From Carcharhinus longimanus (Eukaryota), in assembly GCA_030264375.1 (NCBI GenBank), contig JASCQW010000146.1, positions 26,798,570 through 26,862,569 on the forward strand: a stretch of 64,000 nucleotides of DNA. Direction: 5' to 3'. Every line of letters starts with the position of its first letter. The first letter of the stretch is position 1. A program made the position numbers. Shown here one piece after another: positions 47,501 to 60,000 of this stretch.

Positions 47501-50500
47501 GTTATGGGGATAGGTAAGATGCTCTGTCACAGAGTCAGTGCAGACACGATGGGCTGAATGACCTCCTGCTGCACTGTATGGTTTCATATTCATAGAATCC
47601 CAAGTTGATTAATGGAGACACCCAGTAACTAATTAACTGGCAGAACAGGCTTGAGGGGCTGAATGGTCCACTTCAGTTTCTATTGATGTTAAACTGAATT
47701 TTAAAAATCAAGTCTACATATTCTGATACAATTCCATAAACAAAATGATTGAATCAGAGGCAGAGTGGTGGCACAATGATTAACACTACTGCCTCACAGC
47801 ACCAGGTCCTGGATTTGAATCCCAGCTTGGGTCACTGTGTGGAGTCTGCATGTCCTCCCCACATCTGCCTGGGTTACCTCCAGGTGCTCCGGTTTCCACT
47901 CAGTCCGAAAGACATGCTGTTAGGTGCATTGGCTATGCTAAAGTCTCTCTCGGTGTACCTGAAAAGGCACCAGAGTGTGGCCACTGGGGGATTTCCAAAG
48001 CAACTTCATTGCAGTGTTAACTTAAGTCTGCTTGTGACACTAATAAATTAACTTTAAACACCTGCACTATATCCATACAACTTTAAAGATTTATTTTGAA
48101 CAATTTAAAGATATTTAAAATATCTTAATAGAAGTTTTGACACAAGGCTTGACTACAAACAAGCCATAACTAATGCCACACAATAACGACGTGAAATGCA
48201 CTCTCGTCGGCAATCTCGTCTTAGTACCATCGCTATTTAAAACTCAAATTCTAAGCTATAAATCACAAACTGCTCATCACCGCTTAAAATCATGCGTCCT
48301 GCTTTTCGCAAGATTCAATTCGTTGACGTTACTATTTGAAGCAACTTCTGCTTATTCCTTAAAGCAATCCCAGGCCTCCTTGTCAATGCGCATGTACTGG
48401 TTGAGTGGCTCAGTCCCAGCAGCTCACGTTAAACTGTACTCAAGGCTCCTAGTCAGAGCTCTGGGAGGGAGGAAGGCACAGGAATACTGCATTGGTGTAA
48501 CGGGTTCAATTTGACCTTTAAAACACATTTCAGCAGATACGAGTCTATTACGATAGGTAACGTGCAATTGGGTCTCTCTTCAGGAACGTTTGTTAAATTC
48601 TGAATGCTGTGAAGTACTCACCGCTGCAGGTATAGTGACTTCAAATCCAACTATACGCTTAAATTACATTATAAAAAAATCAGGAACAACCTCAACGTGC
48701 TTTAAATGCAGTAGGAAGTTAGCGTGCAGAAAGGGCATAAACACATATTTATCTGCGGTTTCTGGCATTCTTAAGAAATCTCAACTGGAATAAAACTAAT
48801 CGAGTTTCGTTCTGGAAATAGTGTGGTAGTGTGCACTGATTTAGCCCACAGATTTATTACATCACCAGAGCAAGAAAATTCTAAGCAATCTCACTTTGCC
48901 CTCAAACATCCTCTTCCTTTTGTTCAGCAAAAGTCTGAACTTGTAATGCAGCCGCCTCCCTAGGCGAGTCTGTCACACCTTGTTCGCCCAGCAGGATAAA
49001 ATAACAGGTTCCAGGTTTGTGGGGAGAAGATTAAAATTAAAATGTTACCTACAAATCTAACCGTTCACCTGGGTGAGCAATTTATCCATAAACGCGGTAC
49101 ATTTAAAACTAAATCAAAATGGTTATTTGCTGATAAAGACAAAGAGAATAATCTACTTTCCAGACAAAAAAGGCATCGAGATTAGGCGATTAGTTAATAT
49201 CAGGGAGAAAAATAATGCATGAACATTTTTTAAAAATCCGACCAGGCACATCGAATACAACAAATAACAAAACCAGCTGAAACCTCCCCCCAGTAAAATT
49301 TATTTCGGAAATGAGCCCTAGCGTGAAAACAAAAACACTCGGAACTGTCACATGAATAAGAAAAAGGGCGTCATGAATTTAGGGAAGAATTATGCCCAAA
49401 CAAAACCGAGAATCAAAACCCTCCAGGACTTGACAGCATCTTTCTCTTTCTATTTTCAACTTGGAGGCATCTGAACAATTAATACTGGATTTGTGCCACT
49501 TACAACAACAAAAACAACCTTCTCAGCGATTAATTAACACCTCGGGAGTAGATGAAAAGGAACAAAAAAAGAGATTTAAAAAATGTACAGTTATGGCAGA
49601 TATATGCCAGTGCTGCTGCGAATGTGAACATGCAAAAAGGTGAATTTCCATTTCTGTGTCTGTGAGCGTCTTGAAGGGATGCCGTGTTGGGAGGTACGCC
49701 TCGAGGAAGCGGTTGTTCCAAGGGGAAAGCTGTTCATTACCTTTGTACCGCTCCAAGACGTCCTCATAGGCCTGAACATACTCCTTCTCCTCGGCGAAGG
49801 TGGTTGGTATCTGACCCGGCACATAGCCGGCCATGGTGGCAGCGTTCCGGCCGCAATCGTGGCCGCCTCCCCGGTACCAGAGATCGGCCGGCCGCTCTCT
49901 CTCTGTCTCTCCTCGCCCACACGGAGTTAACCGGAGTTTCCCGGGCTCACTCCAACCAGCCTTGCAGGATGTGAGTGGAGATTGCAGCGGACTCCCAAGT
50001 GAGCTTTTTCCCGGGGATGAGTCTCCGCCCCGCCGATTCCCAGCTTCTTTTTTTTCACATTTATTTTTGCTGATGAATGGTTTAGTCCCCCCCTCCCCCG
50101 CCGCCGGCGAATTGTTTGGCAGCGCCGCCCGGAGTCTGACTCACTCTCTCTCTGTGTCTGTCGCGCACAGGCCAACCACATTCCCTAGGAGCTGGGGAAT
50201 CAGAGCGCCGCCTCTGGCCTCGCGCCGGCCCAGCGGCTGCGCACAGCACCCTCCCCGCCCGCGCGAGCAACCGCCAACTGCCGGGGCTGGAGTGAAGGGG
50301 AGGCTGGGGGGAAGCAAGTTCGATAATGTCAGGTGAGATTATGGAAGGATCAACCGCCAAAGTGAGATTCTGCAGAGATCAACCAATTACATCACTGCCA
50401 AAGTGAGATTATCCCAAGATCAACCAATTACATCCCTGCCAAAGTGAGATTTCTGCAGAGATCAACCAGTTATATCATCATCAAAGTGAGATTCTGCGGA

Positions 50501-57037: not shown

Positions 57038-60000
57038 TATAAACATACAGCTGGGTGGCACAAGTGGTTAGCACTGCTCCCTCACAGCTCCAGGGACCTG
57101 GATTCGATTCCCGGCTCAGGTCCCTGTCTGTGTGGAGTTTGCACATTCTCCCCGTGCCTGTGTGAGTTTCCTCTGGATAGTCTGGTTTCCTCCCACAGTC
57201 CAAAGATTAGGGTTAGGTTGATTGGCCATGATAAAATTGCCCCTTAGTTTCCTGAGATGCCTAGGTTAGAGGGATTAGTGAATAAAATATGTAGGGATAT
57301 GGTGGTGGTAGTGCCTGAGTGGGATTGTGGTCGGTACTGACTTGATGGGTCAAATGGACTCTTTCTGCACTGCAGGGTTCTATGATTCTATGACTCTGAA
57401 TAATAGTCAGTACTGATTGACTGAACCCGTATCATATGTTTGAAATGGTGTTAACCTCTTTCAGTAGTTCAGTTGTAAAGAATCAAATCAATCTTTCTTT
57501 TGATGGTCATTTTATAGACTTAAAAATGTCTGAGAAACAGTTTGGCTTGGCAATGTTTATAATTGTAAATGGCTTTTTATGTAATAAACCTTATAGCTTT
57601 AATTATTTTCATTTTAATTGGCCATTTCAGCTAAAGTGTACCTTTATCTTGTACCTTCATATAGTTTCCTTTTTGTAAGTTTGCTGCTTTTCTCTTTAGG
57701 TTTAAACCTATGCAGAAGTTGGATGGTGTAGGAGACAATATGCCTGGAAATGGACAACACGCAGCTCCAACAACCCCGGAGCAATCTGTAGCTGCACAGA
57801 GCCAGCACCACCAGCAATTTCTTGGTCAGTCAATTAATCTTATACTGTTAGTTTCAGAGGGACCTAATCCTCTCCAGGTTATCAGGAACCTCATTTTAAC
57901 TGTGTCAGGTTTCCAACATCATAGAAACACTACAGAGTGCTCCACCATTATGCGGTTCTGCTTATCCTTGTCACTCCAGTTCTTTCCTCATGTAATTGGC
58001 TTTCACCAGCTGTTTTTCCAACTCTCTCTGGCTTACCTTTATTGCTTGACATGCATTAGCATTGGTTTAAATTTTTTGGATATAATCACAGATTCAAACC
58101 TAAACTGAAATGTGTCGAAAGGTTTGTGATATGCTCAAGGGTCAATGATACTTTGAGCTAAAATGCATCACGTAATGTTGTGTATCTTGTAGCAAACTTG
58201 ACACACTGCTGACCAGTCCGGCTGAGTATGGCACCTGCAGGGCCAGTGCAGATACCACTAGGATTGAAGTGATTGTGCATGTGTAAAACATACTTGTATG
58301 TCTCTAAACATTTTAAAATTATTGTTGTTCACAATAGATATGTCTCGTGCACTGCCAGAGTTTATTGATGCAGAGATTGGTAGCTGTCCTTTGCCAGAGG
58401 ATATCACACTGAATGAAGTGAAGACACTACAGACATTGTACAGAGAGCACTGTGAGGTGAGATGGACTGAGTGATGGGAGGTTGGGGTGAATGGTTCAGG
58501 AGAGGTGGCTGCTTCAAATCAAGCCCTACATCACCTTGCCTTTCTCGGATCCGTACTGTGCTTCTTATATTGTGTTCTTGTACTGTCTAATTCCCTGTCT
58601 TCTCAGGGATACTGGGTTCTGCTGAATCTTGTATTTATTTATGCCTTATCATGTGGAGAATCCTTTCCTTGGCACAGCTTAGTGAAAAAAATGTATCTCT
58701 CCATGTTGCTCAGCTTGAACAAACCCTGTAGTTTGAAGTTCATTACTGGTAGATCCCACTAATGAAGGGATATTTTTATTGTTTTGCAATCACAGGAAGA
58801 TCGAGCCTTTCTAATATCTCTAATATATCAATTTCTTGCATAAGAACATAAGAAGTAGGAGCAGGAGTAGGCCATCTAGCCCTTCGAGCCTNNNNNNNNN
58901 NNNNNNNNNNNNNNNNNNNNNNNNNNNNNNNNNNNNNNNNNNNNNNNNNNNNNNNNNNNNNNNNNNNNNNNNNNNNNNNNNNNNNNNNNNNTTTATTCAG
59001 CCTCTCCTCATAGCTCAACCCCCTCAACTCCGGTATCAGCCTAGTAAACCTCCTCTGCACACCCTCCAGGGCCAAAATATCCTTGCGTAAGTACGGCGAC
59101 CAAAACTGCACACAGTACTCCAGCTGCGGCCTTTACAGCACAGAAAGAGGCCCTTCGGCTCAGTGTGTCTGCACTAGCCACCAAGCACCTATCTATTATA
59201 ATCCCATTCTCCAGTTCTTAGTCCATAGCCTTCTATGCTGTGGTGCTCATCTAAATGCTCCTTAAATGTTGTGAGGGTTCTGATCTCTACAATCCTTTCA
59301 GGCAGCAAGTTTCAAACTTCCACCACTCTTTGGGTGAAAGAGATTTTACTCAAATTCCCTCTTAAATCGCCTGCCTCTTACCTTAAATCTATGCCTCCTG
59401 GTTATTGATCCCTCTGCTAAGGGGAAAAGTTTCTTTCAACCAGCCTAGCTATGTCCCTTCTAATTTTGTACCCTTCAATCTGGTGCTCCCTCAGCCTTCT
59501 CTGTTCTAAGGACAACAGACTAGCCAGCCTTTCTTCTTAGCTGAAATGCTCCAGCCCAAGGAATGGTGAGTCTCCTCTGCATCTTTCTAGTGCAATCACA
59601 TCTTTCCTATAGTGTGGTGACCAGAACTACATACAGTTCTCTGGCTGTGGCCAAACAAGGCTTTTATTTAGTTCCATCATAACCTTCCTGCTCTTCTATT
59701 CTATGTCTTGACTAATAAAGGCACATATATCATATGCTTTCTTAATCATCTTATCTACCTATCCTGCTGTCTTCAGGGATCTTTGGACATGCACCCTCTG
59801 GTCCTTCATACCTCCTAGTGCCCTACCATTCATTGTTTATGCCCTTGCAGATAATACTCCCAAAATGTGACACCTTAGATTTTGTGGTATTTCATAAGGT
59901 TACATCTCGGTTTGGCATTGAAGCTGTGATAATGGGCATGATGTGGACACAAATGAGCAATTTCAACTGCAGCCCTTAAAGGGTCAATTCAAAGATGAAA

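What the first reader, a model, noticed from the sequence alone, without database searches (positions are those of the whole stretch)
49741..58456. Headless RFX2 exons sit head-to-head ~6 kb from a spectraplakin internal promoter
Seen: four intact, phase-consistent RFX2-like exons begin at 55993 with an acceptor. I could not recognise any upstream RFX exon (N-terminal activation region, or the EMAIE..LLNSH exon) on the + strand anywhere in 1-55992, and that span is occupied by an opposite-strand gene. Known: RFX2 has about 200 aa of N-terminal exons. The QAYEDVLERYK exon of MACF1/DST normally has further isoform exons (GDTLPWNL type) upstream, and these genes are not neighbours in human. Inference: both genes seem to lack their 5' parts at this junction. 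Possible explanations are an inversion/translocation breakpoint, an antisense nested or interleaved arrangement, a truncated RFX (retaining the DBD but lacking the activation region) driven by the bidirectional CpG island, or a chimeric contig. There is no N-gap between 51264 and the RFX exons.
[Added by the scan's program, not by the reader: the finding's places include an assembly gap (unread letters, written N; its length is only estimated) at 51165 to 51264. Whether the letters on both sides are continuous or in frame is not known: test that first.]
Basis: partly seen in the sequence, partly recalled or inferred. Interest (0 to 1): 0.75.

Follow-up and report, generated by a model that had tools for sequence, protein, structure and literature searches.

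The report
RFX2 exons beside MACF1 first exon
Four genuine middle exons of the shark RFX2 gene sit 6 kb from a genuine first exon of the MACF1 gene, but this neighbourhood is most likely an error of a fragmented draft assembly and not a real gene arrangement.

Summary
Four AG..GT-bounded, phase-consistent RFX2 exons lie at 55993-58456 (+). No other RFX2 exon was detected anywhere in the window. On the minus strand, 6,158 nt away, is a complete alternative first coding exon of MACF1, not DST. It has a Kozak ATG and sits in the window's only CpG island. No other MACF1 exon is in the window.

The gap at 51165-51264 lies in a non-coding repeat, so no reading frame is at stake. Its flanks share 20 nt, and the same 41-nt minisatellite lies on both sides. 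That join therefore looks continuous.

The adjacency is not conserved. In Cetorhinus and Carcharodon the two genes lie on sequences of different length, that is, on different chromosomes. The same holds in 3 birds, so 5 of 5 species with both values differ. A preprint places RFX2 next to ACSBG2 and RANBP3 in all species it analysed, including elephant shark.

The two exon sets sit on pieces of 4.8 and 7.6 kb of a window with 10 N runs. My best reading (about 0.55) is a repeat-mediated assembly chimera. A real partial duplication (about 0.2) or a real rearrangement (about 0.1) is not excluded. Interest is low.

The parts
49741..49834 (-). MACF1 alternative first coding exon (31 codons + 1 nt). 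ATG at 49834-49832 in the context GCCACCATGG; donor AAG|gtaatg.
   Evidence: 31/31 identical to the N-terminus of P0170, named MACF1-like isoform X1 [Cetorhinus maximus]. Named hits to the exon are all MACF1. Two unnamed transcript-derived proteins, P0122 and P0123, join a 29/31-identical exon to the CH-domain exons. Kozak context and donor.
49650..50330 (.). CpG island, the only one in the window. It covers the MACF1 first exon and about 500 nt upstream of it.
   Evidence: GC 0.55-0.70 and CpG o/e 0.62-0.92 in 200-nt windows, against 0.24 for the whole window. No other 500-nt window passes GC>=0.5 and o/e>=0.6. It holds 3 of the window's 5 GC boxes. Promoter activity itself was not tested.
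50333..50606 (+). 41-nt minisatellite, left part.
   Evidence: TRF gives period 41 and 6.1 copies at 50356-50606. 5 of the 7 matches to a 21-nt core of the unit lie here, with 0 expected by chance.
50619..51660 (.). Block of SINE-like and LINE-like repeats interrupting the minisatellite. It contains the gap.
   Evidence: Read directly. 50753-50859 matches 59122-59016 on the other strand at 77%. Family labels are my recollection of shark repeats, not a tool result.
51165..51264 (.). Assembly gap (100 N) at a poly-G run inside the repeat. The two flanks overlap.
   Evidence: 20 nt at 51145-51164 recur at 51267-51286. None of the other 9 N runs has flanks sharing more than 8 nt. It is 1.3 kb from the nearest exon, so no frame is involved. 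The gap was not filled or looked up.
51680..52200 (+). The same minisatellite family, right part, more degenerate.
   Evidence: 2 of the 7 core matches lie here (51682, 51802), on the same strand. TRF gives period 40 at 51777-51872. Internal repeats at 51909-52167. No copy elsewhere in the window.
55993..56174 (+). RFX2 exon encoding most of the DNA-binding domain (phase 0 start). A second GT donor lies 6 nt downstream, giving an exon end at 56180.
   Evidence: Pfam RFX_DNA_binding, E 1e-24. 60/60 identical to shark, gar and teleost RFX2, against 58/60 to RFX3. The +6 donor gives ...TRSG, the form seen in P0119.
56723..56842 (+). RFX2 exon: end of the DNA-binding domain plus linker.
   Evidence: 39/39 to P0118. 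Pfam profile positions 66-78 of 79.
57700..57824 (+). RFX2 exon (linker).
   Evidence: 41/41 to P0118 and 28/41 to gar RFX2.
58338..58456 (+). RFX2 exon (start of the region before the dimerisation domains).
   Evidence: 38/39 to P0118, P0119 and P0063. The next exon was not found in 58457-64000.

Best explanation
Both sets of exons are real, functional-looking pieces of two unrelated shark genes. One is the alternative-promoter first exon of MACF1. The other is four internal exons of the RFX2 orthologue, corresponding to residues 187-370 of a 732-aa protein. Their head-to-head adjacency is most likely an assembly artefact. In a repeat-rich, short-contig draft, a piece from the MACF1 5' region and a piece from the middle of RFX2 were joined through shared repeated sequence.

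The false junction would lie in one of three places:
- in the minisatellite that starts right at the end of the CpG island (about 50.33 kb);
- in the repeat that holds the 100-N gap;
- in one of the dispersed repeat fragments between 52.9 and 55.2 kb.

Shown: exon identities, the absence of the other exons of both genes, and the placement of the two genes on different chromosomes in other sharks. Inferred: that the join is false, and where it is.
For: (1) Not syntenic elsewhere. Cetorhinus RFX2-like sits on a sequence of 122,109,490 nt and MACF1-like on one of 96,281,689 nt. In Carcharodon the values are 150,295,438 and 115,848,844. Rhea, Tyto and Anser also differ, so 5 of 5 species with both values differ. 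As a control, isoforms of one gene in one species always show the same length (for example 4 of 4 Hemiscyllium and 5 of 5 Heptranchias MACF1 rows).

(2) The text of bioRxiv 10.1101/288530 (passages read) says ACSBG2 is flanked by RFX2, RANBP3, MLLT1 and ACER1, with this architecture 'conserved in all species analysed', which include Callorhinchus.

(3) Both genes are cut inside their bodies. RFX2 lacks residues 1-186 and everything past 370. MACF1 shows 1 exon only.

(4) Draft quality is low. There are 10 N runs in 64 kb. The MACF1 exon lies on a 4,774-nt piece and the RFX2 exons on a 7,627-nt piece, and repeats lie in between.

(5) All exons are near-identical to their orthologues, as expected if each is simply the normal gene copy.
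Against: The only gap between the two exon sets looks like a true join. Its flanks overlap by 20 nt, and the same minisatellite, absent from the rest of the window, lies on both sides in the same orientation. A false join at the gap would therefore require that satellite at both loci, and a false join elsewhere would have to lie inside gap-free sequence, which is rarer. The genome-wide copy number of the satellite and of the repeats could not be measured.

The chromosome evidence comes from only two related sharks (lamniforms) and not from the window's own species. It also rests on sequence lengths as stand-ins for chromosome identity; the listing of cluster members, which could have added accessions, was unavailable.
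Confidence: 0.55

Rival explanations
1. Real partial (segmental) duplication. Either a copy of RFX2 internal exons landed upstream of MACF1, or a copy of the MACF1 promoter and first exon landed inside the large RFX2 intron before the DNA-binding-domain exon. The complete parent genes would sit elsewhere.
For: Local continuity of the 46391-58891 stretch: overlapping gap flanks and the minisatellite on both sides. This reading explains a headless RFX2 and a lone MACF1 exon without any broken essential gene. It is also compatible with the genes being on different chromosomes in other sharks.
Against: All five exons are intact and 178/179 (RFX2) and 31/31 (MACF1) identical in protein to Cetorhinus. 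A non-functional copy would therefore have to be very recent, and short-read assemblies usually collapse recent copies. The window contains no second copy of either exon set.
Confidence: 0.2
2. Real lineage-specific rearrangement or interleaved arrangement. RFX2's first six or so coding exons would lie more than 56 kb upstream, beyond the left end of the window and inside MACF1's first intron on the other strand. The two genes would then overlap head-to-head in this species.
For: No gene other than repeats fills 1-49740, so that span could be a shared giant intron. Shark introns are large; I give this from general knowledge, not from a call. The local join looks continuous.
Against: The genes lie on different chromosomes in 2 of 2 sharks and 3 of 3 birds. 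The RFX2-ACSBG2-RANBP3 architecture is reported as conserved down to elephant shark. Building an interleaved pair from separate chromosomes without breaking either gene would need several precise rearrangements.
Confidence: 0.1
3. An N-terminally truncated RFX2 isoform is transcribed from the MACF1 CpG island acting as a bidirectional promoter and is spliced into the acceptor at 55993.
For: The CpG island lies 5.7 kb upstream on the correct side. The minisatellite units carry donor-like (A/C)AG|GTGAGAT sites on the + strand.
Against: The first donor after the island (exon end 50332) leaves phase 2 in the long + strand ORF and phase 1 after the ATG at 50326, whereas the acceptor needs phase 0 (read). 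Without an upstream coding exon, the first in-frame Met is residue 51 of the exon, which would delete most of the DNA-binding domain. No RNA data were available, and the reading depends on the adjacency being real.
Confidence: 0.04

Closest known systems
MACF1 alternative 5' exons and promoters (isoforms MACF1a1, a2, a3)
   Same: It is a short isoform-specific first coding exon spliced to the common exon that begins DERDRVQKK. Mammalian, lizard and shark MACF1 proteins begin with the same MAGYVPGQ...QAYEDVLERYK type. The review PMC4914211 (passages read) describes isoforms with a common 3' part and unique 5' regions arising from different promoters.
   Different: In the window, nothing else of MACF1 follows within 49.7 kb. 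None of the other shark first-exon types seen lies within 14 kb upstream.
RFX2 (RFX1-3 subgroup of RFX transcription factors)
   Same: The exons encode the RFX winged-helix DNA-binding domain and the following linker. They are closest to proteins named RFX2. Shark RFX2-like proteins that are 177-178/179 identical to these exons fall on the RFX2 side of the RFX2/RFX3 split with 100/100 support.
   Different: The N-terminal activation-domain exons and the C-terminal dimerisation-domain exons that RFX1-3 possess (PMC2533330, passages read) are not in the window.
Head-to-head gene pairs sharing a bidirectional CpG-island promoter
   Same: Two genes lie on opposite strands, diverging from a CpG island.
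   Different: Only one gene starts here. The RFX2 part begins with an internal acceptor 6.2 kb away, not with a first exon.
Repeat-mediated chimeric joins in short-read draft assemblies
   Same: Small pieces are separated by N runs placed in repeats, and two genes from different chromosomes of related species are juxtaposed and both are cut mid-gene.
   Different: The one gap in the interval has overlapping flanks and matching satellite on both sides, which is more typical of a correct join.

Membership tests
RFX transcription factors | RFX-type winged-helix DNA-binding domain | tested here: met
   Pfam PF02257: exon 1 alone scores 87.4 bits (cut-off 27, profile positions 5-64 of 79), and exon 2 covers positions 66-78.
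RFX2 orthologue (rather than RFX3 or RFX1) | Closer to RFX2 than to its paralogues | tested here: inconclusive
   Exons 1-2: 60/60 and 38/39 to gar RFX2, against 58/60 and 36/39 to RFX3. Exons 3-4 do not discriminate. The tree of database proteins puts the shark proteins with RFX2 at 100/100, but no RFX1 was included. The window's own exons were not joined for a tree.
RFX1-3 subgroup | N-terminal activation domain and C-terminal B, C, D (dimerisation) domains encoded at the locus | tested here: not met
   There are no tblastn hits for residues 1-186 or >370 of 6 RFX2 proteins anywhere in the window. They may lie outside the window.
MACF1 (spectraplakin) | Isoform-specific first exon of MACF1 type | tested here: met
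   31/31 to P0170, named MACF1-like [Cetorhinus]. Named hits to the exon are MACF1 only.
MACF1 (spectraplakin) | Calponin-homology, plakin and spectrin-repeat exons downstream on the same strand | tested here: not met
   tblastn of the whole P0170 (7,441 aa) hits only 49834-49703. No CH-domain Pfam hit among the 274 ORFs. These exons would have to lie beyond the left end of the window.
Bidirectional-promoter gene pair | Two first exons diverging from one CpG island | tested here: not met
   The RFX2 part starts with an acceptor and phase-0 coding sequence at 55993, not a first exon.
Conserved RFX2-MACF1 synteny | Both genes on the same chromosome in related species | tested here: not met
   The sequence lengths differ in Cetorhinus, Carcharodon, Rhea, Tyto and Anser, 5 of 5 species with both values.

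The most novel reading that the evidence does not exclude
The junction is real in this shark. A recent DNA-level duplication or translocation placed the RFX2 exons for the DNA-binding domain and linker (and perhaps the dimerisation exons beyond the window) 6 kb from the MACF1 alternative-promoter CpG island. That would create either an antisense-overlapping gene pair or a new N-terminally truncated RFX2 lacking its activation domain, which could act as a competitor at X-box sites.
Probability: 0.12. Interest if true: 0.55.

Novelty: not a real feature. Interest (0 to 1): 0.15.

Why it matters
If the adjacency is an artefact, its main value is as a flag. This scaffold should not be used for synteny, breakpoint or gene-model inference around MACF1 or RFX2, and gene predictors could produce truncated or fused models here. 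If it were real, it would be a rare case of an essential ciliogenesis transcription factor being cut or partly copied next to a foreign promoter. That would be worth an RNA-level look, but nothing in the sequence requires this reading.

Tried and rejected
- DST or plectin identity for the minus-strand exon: rejected. Named hits are MACF1 only, and there is an exact match to Cetorhinus MACF1-like.
- A retained fourth RFX1-3 paralogue next to MACF1 (my own idea, from recalled paralogy of human 1p/9p/19p): rejected. The exons are 177-178/179 identical to the ordinary shark RFX2-like proteins, which group with RFX2 and lie on another chromosome.
- Hidden RFX2 5' exons in 49.8-56 kb: none found. 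The one gap there has overlapping flanks.
- Other MACF1 first-exon types in the window: only a weak hit at 62449-62339 (30% over 37 aa, E 0.03), taken as chance.
- Motif search for CH-domain exons: nothing relevant.
- Rfam at gathering thresholds: 0 matches.
- Target-site duplication around the repeat block: the candidate is confounded by the tandem units, so I dropped it.
- The listing of cluster members for accessions: unavailable.
- Literature search for RFX2 together with MACF1: none of the 12 listed papers (of 41 that matched) reports linkage. The search on shark misassembly gave nothing specific.
No shark genomic DNA could be compared, so synteny rests on protein-table contig lengths.
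- Supplementary files and the figures of 10.1101/288530 were not seen.
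Full report
**Origin of the window.** I take it for an elasmobranch (shark) contig, not human. Its coding pieces are 178/179 and 31/31 identical to Cetorhinus maximus proteins and 177/179 identical to Scyliorhinus torazame RFX2. No tool objected to any letters. Where a full-length protein was needed (tree, tblastn), I used database proteins of sharks instead.

**The gap.** The 100-N run at 51165-51264 lies 1.3 kb from the nearest exon, inside a non-coding block of SINE-like and LINE-like repeats, so no reading frame crosses it. The last 20 nt before the gap (51145-51164: a poly-G run plus 10 further bases) recur at 51267-51286 just after it. None of the other nine N runs has flanks sharing more than 8 nt. 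A 41-nt minisatellite lies on both sides of the repeat block, at 50356-50606 and about 51680-52200, on the same strand. A 21-nt core of the unit with up to 3 mismatches occurs 7 times in the window, 5 to the left and 2 to the right of the gap. It occurs nowhere else, and 0 matches are expected by chance. The simplest reading is one satellite array split by repeat insertions, with contigs that broke at the homopolymer and actually overlap.

**The RFX exons.** Four exons on the + strand (55993-56174, 56723-56842, 57700-57824, 58338-58456) have good acceptors and GT donors and consistent phases. Exon 1 alone scores 87.4 bits against Pfam RFX_DNA_binding (cut-off 27), and exon 2 supplies the end of that domain. 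A search with exon 1 returned 3,936 proteins. The best 120 listed are overwhelmingly named RFX2, with several RFX3.

Per-exon identities:

| Protein | Exon 1 | Exon 2 | Exon 3 | Exon 4 |
|---|---|---|---|---|
| Cetorhinus RFX2-like P0118 | 60/60 | 39/39 | 41/41 | 38/39 |
| Gar RFX2 | 60/60 | 38/39 | 28/41 | 19/39 |
| Teleost RFX3 | 58/60 | 34-36/39 | 24-27/41 | 20-23/39 |

In a 22-protein tree, the shark and chimaera proteins sit on the RFX2 side of the RFX2/RFX3 split (100/100), as sister to bony-vertebrate RFX2. No RFX1 was in that tree.

**Absence of the remaining RFX2 exons.** tblastn of six RFX2 proteins against the whole window, both strands, at E<=50 gave significant hits only for residues about 187-370. 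Everything else was noise at E>0.5. RFX1-3 normally carry an activation domain and B, C and D domains (PMC2533330, passages read).

**The minus-strand exon.** From the ATG at 49834 (context GCCACCATGG) to 49741, followed by a GT donor, it encodes 31 residues. The exon search (padded in frame to the 40-aa minimum with window sequence) returned 48 proteins, and the named ones with domains are MACF1. Two unnamed transcript-derived proteins join a 29/31-identical exon to DERDRVQKK... and the CH domains. A library-wide search with one of them found P0170 (7,441 aa), whose first 31 residues equal the window's exon exactly. P0170 is named MACF1-like isoform X1 [Cetorhinus maximus], and all 120 rows listed in that search are MACF1 or unnamed equivalents. 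The exon is therefore a complete alternative first exon of MACF1, not DST.

It lies in the only CpG island of the window, about 49650-50330, with o/e about 0.8 against 0.24 overall. This fits the known use of several promoters and 5' exons by MACF1 (PMC4914211, passages read). Shark MACF1 proteins show at least five other N-terminal exon types, and none is in the window. Neither is any other part of the 7,441-aa protein.

The span 1-49740 contains only repeat-derived ORFs among the 274 ORFs of 60 aa or more that were scanned. It has no Rfam family. The 'opposite-strand gene' filling it is therefore an inferred intron.

**Is the adjacency found elsewhere?** No shark genomic DNA could be fetched with these tools. 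The protein tables, however, give the length of the sequence each protein sits on, and that length is constant across isoforms of one gene in one species (for example 4 of 4 Hemiscyllium rows).

| Species | RFX2 sequence length (nt) | MACF1 sequence length (nt) |
|---|---|---|
| Cetorhinus | 122,109,490 | 96,281,689 |
| Carcharodon | 150,295,438 | 115,848,844 |
| Rhea | 6,575,671 | 9,398,562 |
| Tyto | 16,068,779 | 11,375,373 |
| Anser | 6,720,584 | 8,272,483 |

All 5 species with both values differ. [quoted passage not shown] A conserved nested or interleaved RFX2/MACF1 arrangement is therefore contradicted. The same evidence shows the adjacency is not simply ordinary.

**What remains.** Either the DNA of this species really has this junction, or the assembly made it.

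For an artefact:
- The window has 10 N runs.
- The MACF1 exon sits on a 4,774-nt piece and the RFX2 exons on a 7,627-nt piece.
- Both genes are cut mid-body.
- All exons look like the normal, constrained gene copies.
- Several repeats lie between them: the minisatellite that begins exactly where the CpG island ends, the repeat that holds the gap, and dispersed fragments at 52.9-53.2 and 55.1-55.2 kb.

Against an artefact:
- The one scaffolding gap in the interval looks like a correct join (see the gap section above).
- A false join would therefore need the satellite at both loci, or a chimera inside gap-free sequence.

Misjoins are far more common in such drafts than recent inter-chromosomal events that leave two exon sets intact; that is my judgement, not a measurement. 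On that basis I put the chimera at about 0.55, a real partial duplication at about 0.2, a real rearrangement or interleaving at about 0.1, and a promoter-capture truncated RFX2 at about 0.04. The rest is unassigned.

The last reading also lacks sequence support. The first donor after the island leaves phase 1 or 2, while the acceptor at 55993 needs phase 0. The first in-frame Met inside the exon would remove most of the DNA-binding domain.

**Verdict.** The 'junction' is most probably not a biological feature. The decisive checks need read-level or chromosome-level data of this species, which these tools do not hold.

Noticed in passing
window 56167-56188 (+): There are tandem 5' splice sites at the end of the RFX2 DNA-binding-domain exon, with GT at 56175 and again at 56181. 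Using the second adds Ser-Gly (...TRSG|GNSKY), exactly the form of Carcharodon RFX2-like isoform X5 (P0119). This looks like a conserved 6-nt alternative donor within the wing of the domain.
   Followed up: partly
window 50333-50606 and 51680-52200 (+): Each unit of the 40-41-nt minisatellite begins with a donor-like (A/C)AG|GTGAGAT on the + strand. The array starts immediately at the edge of the CpG island and is split by a 1-kb repeat block. Its genome-wide copy number is unknown.
   Followed up: partly
window 56871-57391: The 857-nt RFX2 intron holds an (AC)n microsatellite (56871-57035, about 83 copies) and a SINE-like element (57054-57391) with four partial copies elsewhere in the window.
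   Followed up: no
window 28654-29166 (-), 36284-37017 (+), 63761-64000 (+): These are decayed LINE fragments: reverse-transcriptase and endonuclease ORF pieces at or below Pfam cut-offs.
   Followed up: no
window 3605-3823 (-): A 73-aa ORF matches Pfam ALKBH8_N at 21.9 bits, just above the cut-off of 21. No neighbouring exon supports a gene, so it is probably repeat-derived, but this is not explained.
   Followed up: no
window 46291-46390, 58892-58991 and other N runs: 7 of the 10 N runs are exactly 100 N; the others are 240, 739, 46 and 10. Several flanks read like pieces of dispersed repeats (my reading). The scaffold is built from pieces of 0.3-11.6 kb.
   Followed up: partly
P0136 (Lerista edwardsae), P0124 (Gekko kuhli), P0156 (Platysternon, named synemin): These database gene models read through the MACF1 MAGYVPGQ exon into GC-rich non-coding sequence. 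P0136 also includes the GDTLPWNL-type exon upstream of it in one model. They appear to be prediction artefacts or misnamed proteins in public records.
   Followed up: no
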